A stretch of 64,000 nucleotides of DNA from Escherichia phage vB_EcoM_LMP25. Below, one piece after another: positions 3,326 through 54,846 of the stretch (its first letter is position 1; each line of letters opens with the position of its first letter). The position numbers were made by a program, and so were the translations under genes. The DNA is taken from the sequence record MK482688.1; one strand, written 5' to 3'. The notes under the pieces were generated by a model. It was not told the origin of the DNA. It made no database searches and saw only the letters and a program-made list of their open reading frames with translations.

Positions 3326-5560
3326 CTAAACACCACAACCCTCGCAATAAGCATCTTGCAGTGCAGATTTACCTACACCAATGCGACTATTAAGGTAGTA
3401 CATGGTTTTCATACCTACCGAGTTGGCATAAATCATGTACTTCAGAGCTTGAGCCAATGATACCTTCTTAGACTTTGCATAGTCAACATAGAAGTCTGAA
3501 GAAATAGCTTGACCAGTGAACTTTTGAACAATTGCATAACAATCAATCATGTCAAAGGTGTCAATATCCCAAGCAATTTCATAAACATACTTCAACTCTT
3601 CATAATCTGGAACAATAAACAGTACGTTACCAGTTGCAGACTTTTTAGTTAAAATAAAGTCACGAATTGGGTACAAGCCATTTGTCGTGTTAGTTGCTAG
3701 TGAAGAACTCTCATTAGGCATGTAAGCTTCTAATACAGAGTTTCGGATTCCACCATTTTCTTTGATACGTTGTGCTAAGTCATCCCAATCATATCGTAGT
3801 TTTGCATCATGCTTTTCATCAATCTTCTTGTTAGCTGTCTTTGGAGGAACCCAGCCTTCAGGATACTTAGTGAACTTCATGTACTCTGGAACGCCACGCT
3901 CTTTAGCAAGTCTCAGAGAGGCTTCATGCAGATAGTAAGAGTGCATCTCTGCCAGTTCATGAAGTTTCGTTTTACCTGCTCGTGAAGAGTAGTTCACATA
4001 GTTCTTCGCAAGGTAATGAGCCACATTTGTAAGGCCAATCCCAACAGAACGACGCTTCTGAACATGGTTACGCATCGACGGATACGGATAATCCATAAGG
4101 TCAATAACGGAGTCAACCATTGCAAGAGCATAATAAGCAACGTCAGCGTATTCATCTTCTGAAATTCTCCCTGCAACCAAACTAGCTAGGAAGCAAAGAG
4201 CCACCTCACCATCCTCTTTCACAGCATCGTCTCTGTAAAGGTCTGTCTCTTTCTCAAAACCATACACTGGCAATACAATTTCCATACAAAGATTTGACAT
4301 CTTCAATGGTTCTTTAAATGGTGTATGTGTGTTTGCATTGTTAGTGAAGAATGGATACACACGACCTGTAGCATAACGCTGTTGAATAAACAGCTTAGCA
4401 ATTTCACGAGCCTTGACTCGTCTGTGCTTAACTCCTGAATGTACTGCGTGACCAACTGCCATAGCAAACTCATCAGCAGATGCTGTGTAGAACATGTCAT
4501 AGAGTTTTGGTGCATCTTTGTAAGAGAATAGCAACCAATCTGTATCATACTGAACACACTGCCAGAAGTAATCGTTTGTGCCGAATGAGTAGTCCATCTC
4601 ATTAATACGTTTAGAAGGAACCGTTGTAGGGTGCTTCAAACGCAGTAAATCTTCAATCTGCGGGTCTAGAGCAGTGTAGAAGTTGTTAGCTGAACCACCA
4701 CGACTCTTCTGTTTGTTTGCCTCTACAGATGAACGTACAAGCTTGTAATAAGGTAGCTTACCCATGTGTTCAATAGTATTTTGACGGATACCATCACCAA
4801 TAGTGCGAGTCTCCATCAGCATCCCGATACCAGCTTGCTTTGTAGTCATATCATAAGCAACCTTTGCAGCAATACCGAGAGATTCAGCGGTATCATTCGC
4901 CTTAATCAAACAGCATGACGCATAACCTGATTTAGTGGCTCTTAAACCATTCAGGTAAGGAGTAGGAGCGTTAATCTTCAGGTCAGATAGGTAAGTGTAC
5001 AGCTTGATAACATCTTGCAGTCTACGGTGCTTTGGTTGCTTCTCAAAGGCTTTCATAGCCATACCCATAAACATAAATTGTGGTGACTCAAAAAGTCTTC
5101 CCGTTTTAATATCACGGATACCATACTTGTCTCTGAACTGTTTCAGGACTGCATAACCATAAGAGATATCTTTTGAGTGCACAATGTACCCTTGCAGGTA
5201 TTCAAGCTCTTCCTGAGAATAGTCCATCTTCTCCCAAAGTCCTGCTCTCTCCATATTTTTAACGAAGGTAACCAGCGTAGGAACCTTAGTAAAACCTCCA
5301 AAGGCTTCTTTGTAGATAATTCCCAGAAGTAGCCGTCCAGCCATATCTGAGTACTCTTGAGTTTGTTTATCAACACAAACATCAATCATGGCTTGGTGCA
5401 TCTCTTTTGTAGTGCAACCTTCATAGACACGTTTCATGGCTTCCATAGTGACTTCTGACCAGATGATTCCGCGCTTATCTGCCCATGATGCCCACTTATT
5501 CAGTCTTTCTGGGTCAAAGCTTACTACTGTACCGTTTGATTTTTTAATTGTCTTAATCAT
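3326..5560 (-). CDS. nrdA: Ribonucleotide reductase class I alpha subunit
   Basis: 744 aa; N-terminal ATP-cone, then CCLIKANDTAESLG and SNLCMEIVLP active-site-like blocks and a C-terminal CEGCG tail typical of NrdA. Confidence 0.9.
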   Translation of the reverse strand: MIKTIKKSNGTVVSFDPERLNKWASWADKRGIIWSEVTMEAMKRVYEGCTTKEMHQAMIDVCVDKQTQEYSDMAGRLLLGIIYKEAFGGFTKVPTLVTFVKNMERAGLWEKMDYSQEELEYLQGYIVHSKDISYGYAVLKQFRDKYGIRDIKTGRLFESPQFMFMGMAMKAFEKQPKHRRLQDVIKLYTYLSDLKINAPTPYLNGLRATKSGYASCCLIKANDTAESLGIAAKVAYDMTTKQAGIGMLMETRTIGDGIRQNTIEHMGKLPYYKLVRSSVEANKQKSRGGSANNFYTALDPQIEDLLRLKHPTTVPSKRINEMDYSFGTNDYFWQCVQYDTDWLLFSYKDAPKLYDMFYTASADEFAMAVGHAVHSGVKHRRVKAREIAKLFIQQRYATGRVYPFFTNNANTHTPFKEPLKMSNLCMEIVLPVYGFEKETDLYRDDAVKEDGEVALCFLASLVAGRISEDEYADVAYYALAMVDSVIDLMDYPYPSMRNHVQKRRSVGIGLTNVAHYLAKNYVNYSSRAGKTKLHELAEMHSYYLHEASLRLAKERGVPEYMKFTKYPEGWVPPKTANKKIDEKHDAKLRYDWDDLAQRIKENGGIRNSVLEAYMPNESSSLATNTTNGLYPIRDFILTKKSATGNVLFIVPDYEELKYVYEIAWDIDTFDMIDCYAIVQKFTGQAISSDFYVDYAKSKKVSLAQALKYMIYANSVGMKTMYYLNSRIGVGKSALQDAYCEGCGV

Positions 5561-5573
5561 TTTTGAATCCTAC

Positions 5574-5600
5574 AGATGAAAAGAGCCTCCGAAGAGGCTC
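5574..5600 (-). terminator. Hairpin GAGCCTC-TTCG-GAGGCTC with T-run (terminator-like), between the 5607 stop and the nrdA start
   Basis: 7-bp perfect stem, TTCG loop, TTTTC after the stem on the minus strand. Confidence 0.45.
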
Positions 5601-5606
5601 CCTAGT

Positions 5607-5942
5607 TTAAATCTTGAAAATTTGCTCATTCTGCCACATATCGTAAAACTTATCACTTACTTTTGTGACTGAAGAGGCGTGCATACAATTTAGGAACCAT
5701 GACGGTGTACTAGCATCCATAATTGTTTCAAGTTTTTGTGTGACATTCACATCCATGTCTGCAACAACGTAATTGCCTCGCATCTTGCAAACAATTCTTC
5801 CAAACAAGATTGCACTTCTGCCTCTTCTGTCGTCACAGTACATAACTGTGTCTCCGTGCTTAACATCTTGTCCGATACTATCAACACCTAATTTAGCACC
5901 TGAGATAATGTCATCATAAGATAGCTTTTTTGCTTTAGACAC
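5607..5942 (-). CDS. Hypothetical protein
   Basis: 111-aa ORF, co-oriented and tightly packed with neighbours. Confidence 0.4.
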   Translation of the reverse strand: MSKAKKLSYDDIISGAKLGVDSIGQDVKHGDTVMYCDDRRGRSAILFGRIVCKMRGNYVVADMDVNVTQKLETIMDASTPSWFLNCMHASSVTKVSDKFYDMWQNEQIFKI

Positions 5943-6267
5943 GGTATTTCTCCAAGTTTCTTTTTAGATATAACCAACCATAGTCAGTTCTTTCTACACC
6001 CATGAAGAGTGGAGCCATTACAACTTTACCAAAAGTATTCCTGTGTTGACAGATTTCAAAAGAATACTCTTTCTCAATATCAATCCCGTATTTGTACAGG
6101 ACTGCTTTTAAAACTTGTTCATTATCCAGAAGTGTATCTGGAGTCTCACCATACTTCTCAAGTAACGGGTCATTCATAAACACCGTCATAGAGATATTGT
6201 AGTTTGAGAAGTGGCTCTTCTGAGCCACACCTTCTTTATTAATGTTCTGTGAATCCATTATAACCAA
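5935..6267 (-). CDS. Hypothetical protein
   Basis: 110-aa ORF; its start overlaps the upstream gene end. Confidence 0.4.
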   Translation of the reverse strand: MVIMDSQNINKEGVAQKSHFSNYNISMTVFMNDPLLEKYGETPDTLLDNEQVLKAVLYKYGIDIEKEYSFEICQHRNTFGKVVMAPLFMGVERTDYGWLYLKRNLEKYRV

Positions 6268-6994
6268 CCCCTTTTAACCAGCACTTCAGGTTATTAGCAT
6301 CATAATTCAGTTTCGGGTATGAGGTTACATGGAACTGCTCACCATCATAGTAGACAATATCTGCAATCCATAGTCCATTCTCTTTACAGAAGTCTTTATC
6401 TGCTTTAGAGGTAATTGGATTAACTTCTACAAAACCATCTACACCCAAATCCTTTAAGCTACATACAATACCTTTGCAGATAACGCATGTGTCAGATACT
6501 ACCACAAAAAGTTCTTGGCTTTCAAGTTCTACAATGTATTCACCAAGCTGAACTTTAGGGAGATTAGATTGCTTCATAACCTTCCCATCGGCTGCGCGAA
6601 CAATTGCATACCACTCTTTACCATCAACTACTGACATTCTGATGATACACTCTTGACCAGTACGCTTCTCAATATCTGCAAGACGTTTTAAAGCTTCTTC
6701 ATAGTCGTCTGTGTACTTCAGGTCATTATTATGGCAAACGGCTTCCATAGCGCCATTGTGGTCATGCTGTGACAGATAAATCAGACCGTCAAGAACATAT
6801 TGCAAATCTGCCTGAGCATCCAGTGTCTCAATGGGGTCTTTCTCTTCAATTGCTTTTACAAGCTCTTTTGCTTCTTCAAGCATACATAGAGATTGAGATT
6901 TCAAAGACTCCCAATACTCATCACTGTAAGGTTGCTTTTGAGTGTTTCCACAACGAAGATTCCAGTTTTTTACTGATTCTCTTGAGTTAAACAT
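6239..6994 (-). CDS. Hypothetical protein (N-terminal helical region weakly MazG-like)
   Basis: 251 aa; N-terminal EE/D-rich helices (LEEAKELVKAIEE...DAQADLQYVLDGL) loosely resemble MazG-type pyrophosphohydrolases; not confirmed. Confidence 0.35.
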   Translation of the reverse strand: MFNSRESVKNWNLRCGNTQKQPYSDEYWESLKSQSLCMLEEAKELVKAIEEKDPIETLDAQADLQYVLDGLIYLSQHDHNGAMEAVCHNNDLKYTDDYEEALKRLADIEKRTGQECIIRMSVVDGKEWYAIVRAADGKVMKQSNLPKVQLGEYIVELESQELFVVVSDTCVICKGIVCSLKDLGVDGFVEVNPITSKADKDFCKENGLWIADIVYYDGEQFHVTSYPKLNYDANNLKCWLKGVGYNGFTEH

Positions 6995-7233
6995 TTGGAC
7001 TCCTTAAAATATCTGTTAACCTTTAGCTCTCGTGTTTCAATATATTCCAGATGTTCACGTAGCTCTTGACGTTTAAGCATTAGGTGCTGCATTTGAGATT
7101 CAACAGCTTCAACCTCTTTAATTATTGACTCTCTGGCATTTGCAAGAATGCGCTCAAGTTCTTCAATCTTGCTGTCAACTTTTGCTACATGACTCACAGC
7201 TTTACTTTTGTTAAACATTTTATTCTCTCTCAA
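6970..7233 (-). CDS. Hypothetical coiled-coil protein
   Basis: 87 aa, heptad-like charged pattern. Confidence 0.35.
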   Translation of the reverse strand: MRENKMFNKSKAVSHVAKVDSKIEELERILANARESIIKEVEAVESQMQHLMLKRQELREHLEYIETRELKVNRYFKESKCLTQENQ

Positions 7234-25740: not shown

Positions 25741-25772
25741 AAAAAAGGCTCCCGTCAAAAGGAGCCTTAAAA
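25741..25772. terminator. Bidirectional terminator hairpin (GGCTCC...GGAGCC) between convergent genes
   Basis: Stem flanked by A-run and T-run; lies between the thymidylate synthase stop and the 25775 stop. Confidence 0.5.
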
Positions 25773-25774
25773 TT

Positions 25775-26146
25775 TTATTTTTCAGTATTCTTTGTGTTCT
25801 TCTCAGTAATAGCTTGGAGGGCTGATACTGATTGAGCCAGATTATTTACACTGTCAGAGAATTTATCAAGAGTTTTGGTAAGTTTTGCGTTTTCGCCCTT
25901 AACATTCTCTAACTGAACTTTCTGGTTCTCCATCCCTAGCTGAATCAATCTCATGTCAGACTGTAAATCACGAATAGCTGAATAGTTACTTTTGGAATAA
26001 TTATCTAGCTGCTGTAACTTTGTTGTGACAGACACTTCTTGTTTACCACTTGAAACTTGCATGGTGGTATACATCCCAATAACACTAAAAATACCAACTA
26101 CAATTGCACCAATATTATTTTTAAAAGCTTCCTCTAGCCACTTCAT
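25775..26146 (-). CDS. Hypothetical membrane-anchored coiled-coil protein
   Basis: N-terminal transmembrane segment, then a long Q/N/K-rich helix. Confidence 0.4.
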   Translation of the reverse strand: MKWLEEAFKNNIGAIVVGIFSVIGMYTTMQVSSGKQEVSVTTKLQQLDNYSKSNYSAIRDLQSDMRLIQLGMENQKVQLENVKGENAKLTKTLDKFSDSVNNLAQSVSALQAITEKNTKNTEK

Positions 26147-26340
26147 TTATTCTCCCCCTTAAAAGCTTTTTCTAAGTTATCTACGAACTCATCATCAATA
26201 GGTGTGTCTGTTTTACTCGCAAGGTATCTTGCAAGCCTAAAGAACACTTTCTCAATCATGTATTCACTTAGAAGGGATAAAATGAGTTTCCAGAAGAAGC
26301 TACCTAGATTTTTTAGAAGAATTGCTAGGATTGTAGGCAT
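26143..26340 (-). CDS. Small membrane protein (hypothetical)
   Basis: 65 aa with a hydrophobic N-terminus. Confidence 0.35.
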   Translation of the reverse strand: MPTILAILLKNLGSFFWKLILSLLSEYMIEKVFFRLARYLASKTDTPIDDEFVDNLEKAFKGENK

Positions 26341-26383
26341 TTAATCACCTCATCAGCCAAGATGGTGAGAATACCCATAAAGA

Positions 26384-26412
26384 ATATTAACACCATCTTA
26401 ACAATCAGTCAA
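26384..26412 (-). promoter_or_regulatory. Sigma70-like promoter TTGACT-N17-TAATAT on the minus strand
   Basis: Just downstream of the tail-fibre stop, upstream of the two small membrane-protein genes. Confidence 0.45.
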
Positions 26413-26419
26413 CAAGGGA

Positions 26420-28804
26420 TTAAGCAGTTCTCACCCAAGCCATTAACTTGTAGAACTGGTTAGTAACACTAAATGCTGAACCAGAACCTGTACTACCAGT
26501 GTTACCACTGACTGTGTGGCTGTGAGCACCAATACCTACAGAGTGGGAATGGTCACCAGCACCGCTTGTAGTACCAGACCATGTGTGTGTATGGTTACCA
26601 GTTGTGTTAGTGTTAGGGAACTTGTTATCAGTTCTGTCAAGCCAGTCAAGAGTTCTTGTCTTGTTGTTACCAATAGTGGTATAACCGTACTGAGCATCAC
26701 CACCATTAACCAATAGTAGACCTAAGTGGTGAGCGTGGTTACCAGCAGCACTTGTTGTACCACTTACAGAGTGAGTATGACCACCAGTACTATTAGTGCC
26801 CTTCGTACCATAATCAAAAGATGAAGTGGTGGCAGAGAAACTGTGAGTGTGCGATGGTAAGTTACCAACAGCTAAAGTTACAGAGTCTGAACCACCAGTT
26901 GTAGCAACATCTGAACCGTTTGCTGCTGCGATTCTGATAGTTCTACCAACACCATTGTTCAGGTACGTCCAAGTTAACCCAGGCAACGCTGTGTTAGGGT
27001 TAACATTACTGTTAAACCATGTTACAATACCAACTGGGTAGATTTTATTAAGGTCTGTAGAGTCACTAATTGCTTCTGCAATTTTCTGGTCAGTTTCAGC
27101 TTTAGTGTATGCACCAATCTCTGAAGGGTTTGGTCTCTGAGCTTCAGTGTAAACCTTAGACCATTCAGCCTCAAAACCCTGCCTATCTCTAGCTGTTCTA
27201 TACCATAAACCACTATTCCTGTAATCAAACCTTAATTGTGCAGTTGGTGTTGATGCTAACGTATTAGCGAATAGGTGTAAGACTAAACGGCTTGAACCAC
27301 CACCCTTGATAGTCTCTACATAAATTCCTGAAGGTTGGTTCCAAGCCACACCACCATCAGACTCCTCCACTAAAGCTCTGGATGCTGGCCATAAGTACTT
27401 TGCATCGGTTGCAGATTTAACGTAGTATCTATCATCTAAGTTAGACCAATCAGATGGTTGTACCTGACCAGTGATTCTAACAGTTTTATTCAGTAAGAAA
27501 TCACTCCCCATGTAAATGGTGGTAGCAGTCCTGTCATTGTGAATAATGAGTCTGGTCGGGTCTGCTGTTTCTCCATTCCCAATATACCACCTTCTCACAT
27601 CGTCAGCATTATGGGCAGAGAGATACACCTCTTTATCCTGAATAGTATTCCTTAGTTGCAATAATGGGCCATTCTGTTTAATAACCTGTGCAGACCTGAA
27701 AGTGTTTACATCACTTAGCTTAGCAAGATTACTCAAAGTTCCTGCTGGAATATATCTAGAGTCGATGTTAGTCCAATCAGAAGGTTGAACTTGACCAGTG
27801 ATTTGGACTGTTCTGCTCATGGCAATGGTGTTACCTAGTGAGATTTGTGTATTTGCTAAGTAGTTATAGATGTTTACAGTGTTTTCATCGGTATCATTAC
27901 CAATATACCACTTACAAGTTCCATCTGATTTTTTTGCTTGGATATACAAAGCAGCAGTTGTATCTACATTTTGCAGAGTGATAGCATTAGCATTCTTCTT
28001 AACAACAAAGTTAGTGAAAATATTAGAGCCACTAAAAGTATTATCACCAGCCAACTGTGCAAATTTCTGATTAGCCACTGTCTGAGTAAAATATCTAGCA
28101 TCTAAGTTAGAGAAGTCAGAAGGTTGAACTTGACCCATAACTCTTAGTGTCTTGTTAAACGATGCTGTTGCATCAAGTGTCAACATTGAACCGGTGGCAT
28201 GATTGTACAAATAAACATTAGTATTATTTGCATTTCCTTGCCCAACATACCAAGTTTGCTGGTTATTAGCATCCCTACCTTGAATATATGAAGCACCTGC
28301 ATTGGTTGCTTTCTTAAGGGTTAACTGCTCACCATCAGTTACAATTGCTTGCCTAATGCTGAAGTTATTTGTAACAGCAAGCCTTGCATATCTTGCATCA
28401 TTCTCTTCATTAGTTCTCATCCCAAGTTCATTAGGACTTGGTTTATTCAGAGTATGGTAAACAGTTGCTGACCTTGAAGCATCTGCAATAGTTAGTTTAA
28501 GACCATTTGCGTTAATTTTAAAAGTCTTTAAAACATCCCCAATAGTAATCTCAGAAGAGCCTGTCGGGTTAAATACTACCTTACCACCATAAAGTAACTT
28601 AATAATCCCTAAGTCACCAGTCATAGTGCTACCAGCAATCTGAACAAATCTTTCAAGTTTAAAAGATGCTAAGAAGTCTTGATAGGTCATTCGACGGTCT
28701 TCATCACCCAGCATTTCAGGTCTCTTTTTAACTCTGACATGAAGAAGGTCATCTGAACGGATTGTGTCGATTGAGTTTAATTCACTCAATTTGTAATCTG
28801 CCAT
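26420..28804 (-). CDS. Tail fibre protein (long; receptor-binding; HxH-rich C-terminal tip)
   Basis: 794 aa; three internal ~110-aa repeats containing (R/Q)(I/V)(T/M)GQVQPSD(W/F)(S/T)N(L/I)D.RY; C-terminal HTHS / GNHTHT / GDHSHS / GAHSHT repeats like T4 gp37 metal-binding tips. Confidence 0.7.
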
Positions 28805-28850
28805 TATATATTATCCTCTCAAAAGGGGCTATAAAGCCCCTGTAAAGAAA

Positions 28851-30038
28851 TTAAGCTGTTCTCTGCCATACATACAGTACGAAGGATGGCTGCTCAATGT
28901 TGAAAGCTTGTCCACCACCAACACTATTAGTGTTCCCGCTATGCGTATGTTCAGAAGAAGAAACTGTTACAGTACCATTGTGTGTATGTGAACCAATACC
29001 AACTGTGTGGCTGTGAGCACCAATACCAACCGTATGGTTGTGGTTACCAGTTGTGTTAGTGGTAACACTGAAAGAGTGGCTGTGAGCACCAGCGACTTCA
29101 CAGACAGCATCTGCTGAGTACCATGATTGGTCATTCCTTGAAGACCAAACCATTGCAGGTCTTTCCGATAAACCACCACCTGCTTCATAGGTCAATCTGT
29201 GGTTGTGAGCACCATCCGCATTTGTTGACCCACTACCCACATGGTTGTGGTTACCAGTCGTGTTAGTGGTCTTTGTCCCATAGTCAAAAGAGTTGGTAGT
29301 CTTAGTTCCATAATCAAAAGCTGAAATTGACACCGTTGCATTATGGGTGTGACCACCACCACTAAGAGACACAGAGTGTGAGTGTTGTGGCATGTTATTA
29401 ACTGACAAAGTGACAGTTGAAGCACCAAATACAGAGCCTGCTGGTCTTGTATCAGAGTCATAACCAACCAACGCTCTACCTTTTGAAACTAACTCCCAAG
29501 TTCCTCCACAAATTAAATACGTAGAAGGGTTTGCAGAGTTCATGGAAAGATGGATAGTACCTACTGGATAAGAAGCCTGAACAGCCTTGTACAAGTTATT
29601 TACTGCTCTTGCTGTAGCATACTTATCTGCATCTTCATTATAAAGGTTAGATGTTGTCCAGTTCTGAACATTACTCAATCCTACCTGTGCCTTAGTTGTA
29701 TTATGTGGGTTGCTCTTGTCCTGAATATGCTGTTGAACAAGATTATTAACCTCTTCTGAAGACATAATCTGTAGATTTGCTCTTGCCTGAGCTACATTAG
29801 TAACGTCTGATAAGTTATTTGCAGCAACTAACTGAAGAGCATTGATAACGTTATCTAAACCAATTTGTGTTTTAGTAACACCATGAGGGTTATTTCTTAG
29901 GCTTGAGTGTGGAGCAAGTAATTGCTCAAGAGTACATCTCTTATCCTCAATACCCTGCTTAAGATGGAAGATATCACTAAGGTCAATTGGTAAGGCTGCT
30001 TGAGGCAAGGCACTAATTTGAATTTCACCTACCGCCAT
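28851..30038 (-). CDS. Tail fibre protein (short paralogue with HxH-rich tip)
   Basis: 395 aa; C-terminal GNHNHxG / AHSHS / HTHN repeats; same C-terminal ending (-W.RTA) as the 794-aa fibre. Confidence 0.65.
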   Translation of the reverse strand: MAVGEIQISALPQAALPIDLSDIFHLKQGIEDKRCTLEQLLAPHSSLRNNPHGVTKTQIGLDNVINALQLVAANNLSDVTNVAQARANLQIMSSEEVNNLVQQHIQDKSNPHNTTKAQVGLSNVQNWTTSNLYNEDADKYATARAVNNLYKAVQASYPVGTIHLSMNSANPSTYLICGGTWELVSKGRALVGYDSDTRPAGSVFGASTVTLSVNNMPQHSHSVSLSGGGHTHNATVSISAFDYGTKTTNSFDYGTKTTNTTGNHNHVGSGSTNADGAHNHRLTYEAGGGLSERPAMVWSSRNDQSWYSADAVCEVAGAHSHSFSVTTNTTGNHNHTVGIGAHSHTVGIGSHTHNGTVTVSSSEHTHSGNTNSVGGGQAFNIEQPSFVLYVWQRTA

Positions 30039-30040
30039 TA

Positions 30041-38065
<8,025 letters not shown>

Positions 38066-54196: not shown

Positions 54197-54284
54197 TGGT
54201 GTGCCGTGTAGGAGTCGAACCTACCGAGTCTCAATGACAAGGGATTTACAGTCCCCACCGCTACCATCTACGGGATAACGACAC
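54197..54284 (-). tRNA. tRNA-Tyr (GTA), type II
   Basis: Acceptor GTGTCGT/ACGGCAC, anticodon stem GGGGA/TCCCT with loop CTGTAAA, long variable arm, 88 nt. Confidence 0.7.
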
Positions 54285-54353
54285 ATTTAATTTCTATTCA
54301 GGCTAAGGACTTGCACCTTACAAATCGGTGAGCAATCGCTTCTCTCCTAAATT

Positions 54354-54430
54354 TGGCGGTTAGTCAGGGATTCGAACCCTGTGCCATTCGCTTAACAGGC
54401 GACCGCACATACCTTATGTGCTTCCTAACC
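54354..54430 (-). tRNA. tRNA-Asn (GTT)
   Basis: D-stem GCAC/GTGC, anticodon loop CTGTTAA, T-stem CAGGG/CCCTG. Confidence 0.7.
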
Positions 54431-54443
54431 ATGTTTAGTATTA

Positions 54444-54508
54444 CCAGACCGTATATTTCAATTTTTTCCGCTAAAAATTTAATAAATATTGCTGTAAACG
54501 GTCTTCTG
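54444..54508. repeat. tRNA-spacer repeat, copy c (CCAGACCGT ... TTGCTGTAAACGGTCTTCTG)
   Basis: Inverted arms AGACCGT / ACGGTCT around an AT-rich loop of about 45 nt; ends 6 nt before the next tRNA. Confidence 0.65.
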
Positions 54509-54514
54509 TAAATT

Positions 54515-54591
54515 TGGAGGCGGGTGCAGGAGTCGAACCTGCCGATACCATGCTAATGAGACATGTGAGACGCCCTTTCTCTATACCCGCA
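54515..54591 (-). tRNA. tRNA (CAT), second CAT-anticodon gene; Met or Ile2
   Basis: D-stem GAGA/TCTC, anticodon stem CATGT/GCATG with loop CTCATTA (unusual T37), T-arm GCAGG-TTCGACT-CCTGC, unpaired 1-72. Confidence 0.55.
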
Positions 54592-54602
54592 ATTCTTAAT
54601 GA

Positions 54603-54674
54603 CCAGACCAAATATCTTCTTTGTCCGATTAACTTTCAGATGAGTAGATTAAGTTTGCTGTAATTGGTCTTCTG
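54603..54674. repeat. tRNA-spacer repeat, copy d (CCAGACCAA ... TTGCTGTAATTGGTCTTCTG)
   Basis: Inverted arms AGACCAA / TTGGTCT; ends 7 nt before tRNA-Glu. Confidence 0.65.
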
Positions 54675-54681
54675 TCAAAAC

Positions 54682-54759
54682 TGGCGTTCCAGAAGGGATT
54701 TGAACCCTCAAATATCCACTTTGAAAGAGTGGTGACTTTACCATTTTGTCTACTGGAAC
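54682..54759 (-). tRNA. tRNA-Glu (TTC)
   Basis: Acceptor GTTCCAG/CTGGAAC, perfect anticodon stem CCACT/AGTGG with loop CTTTCAA. Confidence 0.75.
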
Positions 54760-54765
54760 ATTAAT

Positions 54766-54846
54766 TTGGTCTCCGTTGAAGGATTTGAACCCTCGACCCC
54801 TTGCTCCCAAAGCAAGTGCTGCTAAACCAAACTGAGCTAAACGGAG
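54766..54846 (-). tRNA. tRNA-Pro (TGG)
   Basis: Acceptor CTCCGTT/AACGGAG, perfect anticodon stem CTTGC/GCAAG with loop TTTGGGA. Confidence 0.7.

What the first reader, a model, noticed from the sequence alone, without database searches (positions are those of the whole stretch)
26420..30038. Two tail fibres share HxH-rich C-terminal tips; the long fibre has three internal ~330-bp tandem repeats
Both fibres end with multiple GNHxH/HTHS-type motifs and the same terminal -W.RTA, and share DNA segments (for example TGTGGCTGTGAGCACCAATACC at about 26516 and 29004). The 794-aa fibre also has three direct repeats at the DNA level (around 27400-27480, 27745-27810 and 28090-28150) encoding QVQPSD(W/F).N.D.RY modules. 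HxH repeats are metal-binding in T4 gp37 tips. Shared modules plus internal repeats give substrates for recombinational host-range switching.
Basis: partly seen in the sequence, partly recalled or inferred. Interest (0 to 1): 0.5.

Follow-up and report, generated by a model that had tools for sequence, protein, structure and literature searches.

The report
Mosaic tail fibres of a Felixounavirus
These are the short and long tail fibres of a known Felix O1-type coliphage; both end in a T4 gp37-style histidine/metal needle tip, as cryo-EM of relatives has already shown, and comparison with relatives shows they evolve by swapping ready-made cassettes at conserved joints.

Summary
The window is Escherichia phage vB_EcoM_LMP33/LMP34 (Felixounavirus; 99.9-100% identity). 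Gene 28851-30038(-) is the 395-aa short fibre and 26420-28804(-) the 794-aa long fibre, orthologues of Bas63 gp26/gp27. Both C-terminal parts are homologous to the T4 gp37 tip (2XGF, E 1e-26 and 8e-23). They carry 9 and 6 HxH motifs that align with T4's iron-binding HxH, and both end in W-x-RTA. The three ~330-bp repeats are real but old: 31-37% amino-acid identity, with only a 67-nt junction at ~75% DNA identity. Each is a T7 gp17 'pyramid'/PF20744 domain. All of this is already published for the genus (VpaE1 2015; Sf14 and Bas63 cryo-EM 2025).

The recombination reading is supported, with corrections. The true distal tip is the variable 'head' loop between outgoing and returning HxH strands, not the C-terminus. 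Repeat number is 3 in every close relative examined. What varies is which allele sits in each module. Among 121 long fibres, five segments assort into 52 combinations, breakpoints fall on the junction repeats, and alleles move between positions 1 and 3. Head cassettes are shared between long fibres, short fibres and T4-like gp37.

Verdict: ordinary, already-known biology. The cassette-shuffling picture is a modest addition.

The parts
28851..30038 (-). Short tail fibre gene (395 aa), orthologue of Bas63 gp26 / Sf14 gp52 / VpaE1 gp74
   Evidence: ORF. Same gene order as Bas63. PHROG 2097 E 9.5e-137. Pfam Gp10_C.
29604..30038 (-). Short fibre N-terminal part (aa 1-145, approximate): baseplate-binding region plus helical region with two NPHxxTKxQ(I/V)GLxNV motifs
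   Evidence: Sequence. Helices in the AF2 model. Conserved among homologues, identity 0.65-0.84. Bas63 description (PMC12609058).
29394..29603 (-). Short fibre collar domain (aa ~146-215), T4 gp10 C-terminal / gp37 collar-like
   Evidence: Pfam PF21939, 68.8 bits. PDB 2FKK/5HX2 hits. pLDDT 81-90.
29199..29393 (-). Short fibre outgoing needle strand (aa ~216-280) with 4 HxH and a duplicated FDYGTKTTN unit
   Evidence: 30-nt tandem repeat at 29262-29320.
29091..29198 (-). Short fibre head cassette (aa ~281-316, RLTYEAGGGLSERPAMVWSSRNDQSWYSADAVCEV): presumed receptor-contacting tip and the most variable segment
   Evidence: Identity to 72 homologues is 0.23-0.26. 37 head types in the sample. Aligns with the T4 gp37 head.
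28929..29090 (-). Short fibre returning needle strand (aa ~317-370) with 5 HxH, including the GIGxHxHxV tandem duplication
   Evidence: 27-nt tandem repeat at 28979-29042.
28851..28928 (-). Short fibre C-terminal strand returning to the collar (...QAFNIEQPSFVLYVWQRTA) plus stop codon
   Evidence: Conserved at 0.78-0.79. pLDDT 89. Aligns with the T4 gp37 C-terminus.
28825..28840 (-). GC hairpin (GGGGCT-TTAT-AGCCCC) followed by TTTT in the 46-nt gap between the two fibre genes; terminator-like
   Evidence: Sequence. KhF2 annotators marked a terminator at the same place.
26420..28804 (-). Long tail fibre gene (794 aa), orthologue of Bas63 gp27 / Sf14 gp53 / VpaE1 gp75
   Evidence: ORF. PHROG 4277, 1292 bits. 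Same gene order as Bas63.
28430..28804 (-). Long fibre N-terminal baseplate-binding region (aa 1-125), conserved
   Evidence: Identity 0.88-0.99 across 120 homologues.
28091..28429 (-). Shaft module 1 (aa 126-238): T7 gp17 pyramid-like beta domain plus junction
27752..28090 (-). Shaft module 2 (aa 239-351)
27425..27751 (-). Shaft module 3 (aa 352-460)
28092..28158 (.). Junction repeat copy 1 (encodes ...[15 protein letters not shown]): conserved DNA where mosaic blocks switch
   Evidence: Repeat family D3. Breakpoint against KhF2 at ~28136.
27753..27819 (.). Junction repeat copy 2 ([15 protein letters not shown])
   Evidence: Repeat family D3. Breakpoint against KhF2 at ~27722.
27426..27492 (.). 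Junction repeat copy 3 ([15 protein letters not shown])
   Evidence: Repeat family D3. An island of identity between two divergent blocks against KhF2.
27065..27424 (-). Central domain (aa ~461-580) homologous to the phage Mu tail fibre S domain (Pfam gp37_C); variable
   Evidence: PF12604, 57 bits. 8JU3 E 7.6e-22. Foldseek 8JU3 1.6e-6. 5 allele classes.
26855..27064 (-). Long fibre collar domain (aa ~581-650), conserved
   Evidence: Identity 0.98-1.0. BLASTP to the short fibre collar.
26729..26854 (-). Long fibre outgoing needle strand (aa ~651-692) with 3 HxH
26594..26728 (-). Long fibre head cassette (aa ~693-737, [45 protein letters not shown])
   Evidence: Variable, 7 types in the sample. 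The same head occurs in gp37 of T4-like phages N2, BYEP01, sutha, AV122 and SHBML-50-1.
26510..26593 (-). Long fibre returning needle strand (aa ~738-765) with 3 HxH
   Evidence: 56 nt are 91% identical to T4 gene 37.
26420..26509 (-). Long fibre C-terminal strand (...[19 protein letters not shown]) plus stop codon
   Evidence: AWVRTA in 119 of 120 homologues.
26511..26536 (.). 26-nt word identical to 29002-29027 (encodes [10 protein letters not shown] in both fibres); 'His box'
29002..29027 (.). Partner of the 26-nt word, in the short fibre gene
30041..30343 (-). Context: 100-aa protein, orthologue of Bas63 gp25 (the platform the long fibre attaches to)
   Evidence: Same gene order. PHROG 4141. 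PMC12609058.

Best explanation
The region encodes the two receptor-binding fibres of a Felixounavirus. Each is presumably a homotrimer attached to the baseplate by its N-terminus: in Bas63 the short fibre binds wedge 2 and the long fibre binds the gp25 platform.

Each fibre ends in a T4 gp37-type tip. The chain leaves a collar, runs out along a needle, forms a small variable head that would contact the receptor (LPS core in studied relatives), and runs back to the collar, ending in W-x-RTA. By homology, each HxH motif from the three chains would coordinate one metal ion (iron in T4) in the needle axis. That gives about 6 sites in the long fibre and 9 in the short fibre.

The long fibre's extra length comes from three tandem T7-gp17-pyramid-like beta domains, separated by conserved helical junctions (GQVQPSD[WF]xNxDxRY), plus a Mu fibre-S-like domain.

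The fibres evolve by cassette exchange. Conserved DNA at the module junctions and around the HxH motifs flanks strongly diverged cores, and homologous recombination between co-infecting phages swaps those cores. This produces new combinations of shaft modules, central domain and head. Exchanges occur between long and short fibres and with T4-like phages.

Shown here: homology, motif alignment, mosaic structure and breakpoint positions. Inferred: trimer, metal binding, receptor, and any effect on host range.
For: Identity of the phage: 99.9-100% to LMP33/LMP34. The gene order matches Bas63 gp23-gp27.

Tip homology: 2XGF E 7.6e-23 and 1.6e-26. The two tips are 34% identical to each other over 255 aligned columns. 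A three-way alignment places the long fibre's 6 HxH on 6 of T4's 7. It places the short fibre's 9 on all 7 plus one extra on each strand, through matched 22-aa and 20-aa insertions. T4's HxH bind seven irons, and H929/H931 are essential (PMC6957217).

Modules: PF20744, 171.5 bits, 3 stretches. A profile of module alleles hits T7 gp17 aa 368-435 at E 4e-7. AF2 gives beta cores with pLDDT 70-89 and helical junctions. Foldseek finds the Mu fibre, T4 gp34 and T7 gp17.

Cassette exchange:
- Per-segment identities of 120 homologues are bimodal and independent.
- There are 5-7 allele classes per segment and 52 combinations in 121 proteins, and 8 of 10 segment pairs show all four gametes.
- DNA identity to isolate KhF2 switches between >0.9 and ~0.4 exactly at the junction repeats.
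- KhF2 module 1 is 87% identical to LF110P1 module 3, and KhF2 module 3 is 80% identical to Bas63 module 1.
- Salmonella phage OPT-SAL01 carries the same head in both of its fibres, 79% DNA identity over 198 nt.
- The T4-type head is found in VpaE1, REP5-12 and L27 long fibres.
- The window-type head is found in five T4-like phages.

Published cryo-EM of Bas63 and Sf14 shows the same architecture (PMC12609058, PMC11821841).
Against: - No structure of the trimer or of metal sites could be obtained. The monomer AF2 models have pLDDT of about 30-35 in the long-fibre tip and 46-62 in the short-fibre head region, and Foldseek did not recover 2XGF.
- Conservation at junctions and His boxes is also what purifying selection on structure would give. 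Breakpoints at conserved DNA show where exchange is possible, not that the motifs evolved for it.
- Within this genome the junction copies share only 12-20 nt exact runs, which makes them poor substrates for intragenic recombination.
- Most homologues analysed are metagenome assemblies that could be chimeric. The key points were re-checked only on a handful of isolates.
- The 120 homologues are the ones most similar to the query, so they are a biased sample.
- No host-range data were linked to any cassette, apart from the anecdotal VpaE1 / E. coli B parallel.
Confidence: 0.85

Rival explanations
1. The repeats and shared motifs are only structural: conserved because the fold (helical junctions, metal-binding needle) requires them. 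The diversity of the cores arose by ordinary point-mutation divergence under diversifying selection, without recombination playing a special part.
For: The conserved elements are exactly the structurally critical ones: HxH, the GQVQPSD..RY junction, the collar and the C-terminal strand. Internal repeats are only ~50% identical in DNA. Copy number is fixed at 3 in close relatives. Among identical residues only ~57% of codons are identical between the two tips.
Against: Identity is bimodal: ~99% or ~36% in a segment while flanking segments stay >90%. All four allele pairs occur for 8 of 10 segment pairs. Switches in DNA identity are sharp. The same allele is found at different positions and in different genes and phage families. 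Divergence alone cannot produce these patterns.
Confidence: 0.1
2. One reading: the three internal repeats act as substrates for unequal intragenic recombination. Fibre length (repeat number) would then vary between isolates and tune host range.
For: Distant metagenomic relatives have 4 modules (P0242, 901 aa) and 5 modules (P0241, 1015 aa, with modules 3 and 5 64% identical). So duplication has happened. P0090 has module 2 copied exactly over module 3. The short fibre does show copy-number variation of short needle repeats: FDYG 0-4 copies and HxH 6-11.
Against: 3 junction motifs are matched in 107 of 120 close homologues. The other 13 have the same length classes, and the module alignment shows degenerate motif variants such as QVKPSD and QVQPSN. 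The best isolate matches to the 4- and 5-module proteins are ~2.3-kb genes, which is 3-module size. Bas63 authors report no variable repeat number in the 18 ICTV species (PMC12609058). Exact runs between copies in this genome are only 12-20 nt.
Confidence: 0.1
3. The mosaic patterns are artefacts of metagenome assembly: chimeric contigs from mixed Felixounavirus populations.
For: Most of the 240 homologues come from Logan/ENA assemblies. Conserved junctions are just where assemblers switch between strains. P0090's perfect internal duplication is suspicious.
Against: The same features are present in sequenced isolates: KhF2, Bas63, CRP22, LF110P1, Moogle, VpaE1 and OPT-SAL01, REP5-12, and N2, BYEP01 and sutha.
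Confidence: 0.05

Closest known systems
Bas63 (JohannRWettstein) gp26 short fibre and gp27 long fibre; Sf14 gp52/gp53; VpaE1 gp74/gp75 (Ounavirinae)
   Same: Orthologous genes in the same order. Same architecture: N-terminal baseplate-binding domain, T4 gp37-like collar/needle/head with HxH, and a long fibre with beta repeat domains separated by helical turns plus T7 gp17-like and Mu-like domains. No neighbouring chaperone gene (PMC12609058, PMC11821841, PMC4690856).
   Different: The alleles differ. Against Bas63, the long-fibre head, module 1 and 2 cores and the whole short-fibre tip are diverged. The short fibre here has 9 HxH against 7 in Bas63.
T4 gp37 receptor-binding tip (PDB 2XGF)
   Same: Significant sequence homology over collar and needle. 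HxH motifs align. FDYGTK and GIGAHxHTV motifs are shared, and 56 nt are 91% identical in DNA.
   Different: 6 or 9 HxH instead of 7. The heads differ. The tip is fused to a short Mu/T7-like shaft in one polypeptide rather than a four-protein fibre. No gp38 homologue is found in the 64-kb window.
T7 gp17 pyramid domain (PDB 4A0T/4A0U) and T4 gp34 repeated shaft domains (4UXG/5NXH); Pfam PF20744
   Same: The module core matches gp17 aa 368-435 by profile (E 4e-7) and by fold (65 columns, rmsd 1.8 A). Foldseek aligns the three-module region with gp34.
   Different: Three tandem copies with a strongly conserved helical junction motif, against one copy in T7. No sequence-level match to gp34.
Phage Mu tail fibre S (PDB 8JU3); Pfam PF12604
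   Same: Long fibre aa 482-576 match Mu S aa 336-427, E 7.6e-22.
   Different: Here the domain sits in the middle of the fibre, followed by a gp37-type tip. About 10% of homologues replace it with another, longer domain.
Recombination at conserved motifs ('His boxes') in T-even adhesin genes (Tetart et al., J Mol Biol 1996 and 1998; from my own knowledge, only the 1996 title seen in the reference list of PMC6957217)
   Same: Conserved HxH-coding DNA flanks variable adhesin segments. Short duplications occur in the needle. Segments are swapped between phages.
   Different: Here the exchange also involves shaft modules, two paralogous fibres in one genome, and phages of two families (Ounavirinae and Straboviridae).

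Membership tests
T4 gp37-type receptor-binding tip (collar-needle-head) | Sequence homology to the solved tip (2XGF) across collar and needle | tested here: met
   phmmer E 7.6e-23 (long fibre aa 650-774) and 1.6e-26 (short fibre aa 146-367).
T4 gp37-type receptor-binding tip (collar-needle-head) | HxH motifs at the positions of T4's seven iron-binding HxH | tested here: met
   Alignment. The long fibre has 6 of 7 (the last returning one is missing). The short fibre has all 7 plus one extra on each strand.
T4 gp37-type receptor-binding tip (collar-needle-head) | Out-and-back chain topology with a small head between the two needle strands and the C-terminus back at the collar | tested here: inconclusive
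   Supported by the alignment to T4, by the variable segment lying between the HxH groups, and by the conserved C-terminus. The AF2 monomer models are too poor in this region. Shown by cryo-EM for the Bas63 orthologues (PMC12609058).
T4 gp37-type receptor-binding tip (collar-needle-head) | Homotrimer with metal ions (Fe) on the three-fold axis | not testable with these tools
   Only single-chain prediction is available, and no metals are modelled.
T4 gp37-type receptor-binding tip (collar-needle-head) | Folding depends on the gp38 (and gp57A) chaperones encoded by the phage | tested here: not met
   tblastn of T4 and N2 gp38 against the window finds nothing below E 0.36. The two ORFs downstream of the long fibre are PHROGs of unknown function. 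gp57A was not searched, and the window is only part of the genome.
PF20744 / T7 gp17 pyramid-like shaft module | Pfam match above the gathering score | tested here: met
   171.5 bits against a cut-off of 21.7, 3 stretches.
PF20744 / T7 gp17 pyramid-like shaft module | Homology and fold similarity to the solved pyramid domain | tested here: met
   Profile hit to 4A0U/4A0T/7BOZ at E 4e-7 to 1e-6. Foldseek 4A0T: 65 columns, rmsd 1.8 A, probability 1.0. Module cores have pLDDT 70-89.
Mu fibre S-like domain (PF12604) | Pfam match above the cut-off and a match to the solved Mu fibre | tested here: met
   57.1 bits against 22.5. 8JU3 E 7.6e-22. Foldseek 1.6e-6.
Felixounavirus short/long fibre pair (Bas63 gp26/gp27) | Same gene order downstream of wedge and platform genes, and full-length homology | tested here: met
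   PHROG 2097 and 4277 match over the full length.
Motif-mediated cassette recombination in fibre genes | Diverged blocks bounded by conserved DNA, with incompatible block combinations among relatives | tested here: met
Motif-mediated cassette recombination in fibre genes | Exchange changes receptor specificity or host range | not testable with these tools
   Only circumstantial: VpaE1, restricted to E. coli B, carries the T4-type head (PMC4690856).

The most novel reading that the evidence does not exclude
Felixounavirus fibres would be a combinatorial system with at least five exchangeable slots (three shaft modules, a central domain and the head). In it, shaft-module alleles can move between repeat positions 1 and 3. 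Head cassettes would circulate among long fibres, short fibres and gp37 of T4-like phages. This implies that the 'structural' shaft modules are themselves under diversifying selection, for example through lateral contacts with surface glycans or with the sheath. I did not find this described in the Felixounavirus papers I read, which speak only of 'substantial sequence variation'.
Probability: 0.5. Interest if true: 0.45.

Novelty: already known. Interest (0 to 1): 0.27.

Why it matters
For annotation, it settles what these two genes are and which ~35-45 residues of each are the likely receptor-contacting head. That is useful for predicting or engineering the host range of Felix O1-type phages, which are used in Salmonella and E. 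coli diagnostics and biocontrol. The cassette map gives natural, pre-tested crossover points for building chimeric fibres: the conserved junction motif GQVQPSD..RY and the HxH boxes. The sharing of heads with T4-like phages suggests that tips can be transplanted between very different virions, apparently without the T4 chaperone gp38. None of this changes current understanding of how such fibres work.

Tried and rejected
- AlphaFold2 single-chain models of both fibres were too poor in the tips to say anything about His geometry. Foldseek of the short-fibre model gave only weak gp10 / C24 / beta-pore-stem matches.
- Tandem Repeats Finder does not see the ~330-bp units because they are too diverged. 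They had to be defined from the protein motif.
- I looked for copy-number variation of the three modules in 120 close homologues and in the isolates that best match the 4- and 5-module proteins, and found none. It appears only in two distant metagenomic proteins whose source I could not trace.
- I considered recent gene conversion between the two tips of this genome. The only evidence is the 26- and 21-nt identical words. Overall tip DNA identity is 54%, and only 57% of codons for identical residues are the same, so there is no evidence of a recent event here. This contrasts with OPT-SAL01.
- A search for LMP33/LMP34 in the literature found nothing relevant.
- Bartual 2010 and Hyman & van Raaij 2018 are not held in the library. 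The iron-site facts are cited from PMC6957217 and PMC12609058 instead.


Full report
**What the window is.** The region and its surroundings are 99.9-100% identical to Escherichia phages vB_EcoM_LMP34 and LMP33, genus Felixounavirus. The two ORFs of the finding are annotated there as tail fibres. Gene order matches phage Bas63 (JohannRWettstein):
- 31203-32672: wedge protein, Baseplate_J
- 30343-31200: wedge protein
- 30041-30343: 100-aa platform protein
- 28851-30038: short fibre, 395 aa
- 26420-28804: long fibre, 794 aa

**Check of the observation.**
- The long fibre has 6 HxH motifs (aa 652-763) and the short fibre has 9 (aa 219-366).
- The proteins end in AWVRTA and VWQRTA.
- The quoted 22-mer lies at 26515 and 29006, inside a 26-nt exact match. 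A second exact match of 21 nt lies at 26592/29041.
- The three direct repeats are at 27426-27492, 27753-27819 and 28092-28158, at 75-76% identity.
- The best 67-nt self-match in the gene is 51/67, against at most 38/67 in 20 shuffles.
- At the protein level the repeats extend to whole units of 109-113 aa (aa 126-238, 239-351, 352-460). These are only 31-37% identical in protein and about 50% in DNA. They are old domain duplications whose 3' junction alone has stayed similar.

**What the parts are.**
- *Tips.* Both C-terminal parts are homologous to the crystal structure of the T4 gp37 tip, 2XGF (E 7.6e-23 and 1.6e-26), and to each other (34% identity).
- *HxH alignment.* In a three-way alignment, the long fibre's six HxH fall on six of T4's seven, three outgoing and three returning. 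The short fibre has all seven plus one more on each strand, through matched insertions of 22 and 20 residues. These insertions coincide with two small tandem duplications in the DNA (28979-29042 and 29262-29320).
- *Metal sites and the head in T4.* In T4 these HxH motifs coordinate seven irons along the needle. The segment between the two HxH groups is the head that binds LPS/OmpC (PMC6957217; PMC12609058).
- *Where the distal tip is.* The corresponding segments here are long fibre aa ~693-737 and short fibre aa ~281-316. The short-fibre head is the most variable part of that protein among relatives, and the long-fibre head is the variable part of its tip. The conserved W-x-RTA end aligns with T4's C-terminal strand, which returns to the collar. 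So the true distal tip is the middle of the HxH region, not the C-terminus.
- *Shaft modules.* The three modules are Pfam PF20744 domains (171.5 bits, three stretches). A profile of 16 diverse module alleles hits the pyramid domain of T7 gp17 (aa 368-435, E 4e-7).
- *Central domain.* Residues 482-576 match the Mu tail fibre S (8JU3, E 7.6e-22).
- *Predicted structures.* The single-chain AlphaFold2 model of the long fibre is confident only in the module cores (pLDDT 70-89). These are beta-rich and separated by short helices that carry the QVQPSD..RY motif. Foldseek returns the Mu fibre, T4 gp34 and T7 gp17. The tips were modelled poorly in both fibres, so metal geometry could not be assessed.

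**What is already published.**
- VpaE1 (2015) reported that both Felix O1-type fibres share a T4 gp37-like C-terminal region, and that the middle of the long fibre is highly variable (PMC4690856).
- The Sf14 structure (2025) described T7 gp17-like and Mu-like domains plus a T4 gp37-like distal tip, and found no chaperone homologues (PMC11821841).
- The Bas63 structure (2025) described collar, needle with HxH, and head for both fibres. It counted the di-histidine motifs, described beta repeat domains separated by helical turns, and stated that repeat number does not vary among the 18 ICTV species (PMC12609058).
- The finding is therefore known biology in a known phage.

**Test of the recombination idea.** I compared 120 long-fibre and 72 short-fibre homologues and then re-checked key points on isolate genomes.
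- *Copy number.* Lengths cluster at 779-797 aa, with a 854-858-aa class that carries a different central domain. 3 junction motifs were matched in 107 of the 120. The other 13 have the same lengths, and the module alignment shows degenerate motif variants.
- *Segment identities.* Identity to the window protein, segment by segment, is bimodal and independent. Module-1 core is ~99% or ~36-40%. Module 2 is 99/88/68/~38%. Module 3 is 99/75/~30%. The central domain is 99/88/75/50/20%. The head is 87-100% or 9-23%. Meanwhile the N-terminus, the three junctions, the collar and the returning needle stay high.
- *Allele combinations.* Clustering gives 5-7 allele classes per segment and 52 five-segment combinations among 121 proteins. 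8 of 10 segment pairs show all four combinations of their two commonest alleles.
- *Breakpoints.* Against isolate KhF2, DNA identity switches between >0.9 and ~0.4 at 28136, ~27722 and ~28385, with an island of identity at 27413-27470.
- *Position changes.* One allele class holds 28 module-1 and 18 module-3 cores. Among isolates, KhF2 module 1 is 87% identical to LF110P1 module 3, and KhF2 module 3 is 80% identical to Bas63 module 1. One metagenomic protein has module 2 copied exactly over module 3.
- *Wider relatives.* A profile search of 1.8 billion representative proteins found orthologous fibres with four modules (901 aa) and five modules (1015 aa). The latter has modules 3 and 5 at 64% identity. 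No sequenced isolate matches them closely; the best hits are ~50% and ~44% identical.

**Head cassettes.**
- The sample holds 7 long-fibre and 37 short-fibre head types.
- The same types occur in long fibres of some phages and short fibres of others (93% over 30 aa).
- Salmonella phage OPT-SAL01 carries one type in both of its fibres, 79% DNA identity over 198 nt. Most Salmonella members show two matches per genome.
- The T4 gp37 head itself (88% over 60 aa) sits in the long fibres of VpaE1, REP5-12, NBEco005, L27 and AYO145A. VpaE1, like T4's LPS-dependent mode of adsorption, uses E. coli B-type LPS (PMC4690856).
- Conversely, the head of this window's long fibre is found in gene 37 of T4-like phages N2, BYEP01, sutha, AV122 and SHBML-50-1. 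In N2 it joins a T4-type collar and is followed by gene 38.
- In the window phage the two heads are unrelated, so the two fibres probably recognise different structures.
- Short-fibre needles vary in length: HxH 6-11 and FDYG units 0-4. The window has 9 HxH and Bas63 has 7.

**Interpretation.** The best explanation is the standard one for phage adhesins, now well documented for this pair. They are trimeric fibres with metal-stapled gp37-type needles, and they diversify by homologous exchange at conserved joints.
- His-metal geometry remains untested here.
- Purely structural conservation, assembly artefact and unequal crossing-over were considered as rivals. They fit the data less well (see rival explanations).
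- It remains unexplained why supposedly structural shaft modules exist as deeply diverged, freely reassorting alleles.
- It is also unclear how a gp37-type tip folds without gp38. No homologue was found in the window or next to the fibre genes.

**Verdict.** The feature is already known, so interest is low to moderate. The combinatorial shuffling, including position changes and cross-family head sharing, is a modest and possibly undescribed addition.

Noticed in passing
window 28825-28840 (- strand): GC-rich hairpin GGGGCT-TTAT-AGCCCC followed by TTTT in the 46-nt gap between the short- and long-fibre genes. It looks like a terminator or attenuator and could set the ratio of the two fibres. 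KhF2's annotators marked a terminator at the same place.
   Followed up: partly
window 26359-26399: A 15-nt inverted repeat (87% complementary, 11-nt loop) just downstream of the long-fibre stop codon and upstream of the 65-aa ORF. A weak sigma-70-like match overlaps it (26412-26384, - strand).
   Followed up: no
window 25745-25768: A strong hairpin with T-runs that scores as a terminator on both strands. It lies between the convergent thymidylate synthase gene (+) and the 123-aa ORF (-).
   Followed up: no
window 49771-54846 (- strand): A cluster of 25 tRNA genes, typical of Felix O1-type genomes.
   Followed up: no
window 25775-26340 (- strand): The two small ORFs after the long fibre (65 aa, hydrophobic N-terminus; 123 aa) match only PHROGs of unknown function. 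The equivalent of the 123-aa ORF in phage Moogle is annotated 'putative holin'. Neither resembles a fibre chaperone.
   Followed up: partly
L002 (Escherichia phage N2, ON645936) 3895-7097: Gene 37 of this T4-like phage carries the Felixounavirus long-fibre head. In the record it is frameshifted directly after the head and is annotated only as a misc_feature. This could be a sequencing error or a pseudogene.
   Followed up: partly
GenBank GU169904 ('Staphylococcus phage SA1', 147 kb) and MG065664 ('Campylobacter phage A132', 70.7 kb): Both records contain Felixounavirus tail-fibre DNA at 90-100% identity. They are probably mixed or mislabelled records.
   Followed up: no
P0090 (metagenomic long fibre, 858 aa), aa 239-351 and 352-464: Module 2 is repeated almost exactly in the place of module 3; the cores are 100% identical over 71 aa. 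This is either an intragenic conversion between repeat positions or an assembly artefact.
   Followed up: partly
Long-fibre homologues of 854-858 aa (e.g. P0023, P0033, P0114-P0117): About 10% of homologues replace the Mu-S-like central domain (window aa 461-560) with an unrelated domain about 60 aa longer.
   Followed up: no
P0241 (1015 aa) and P0242 (901 aa), metagenomic relatives: These are orthologous long fibres with five and four shaft modules instead of three. Their source organisms could not be traced with the tools allowed.
   Followed up: partly
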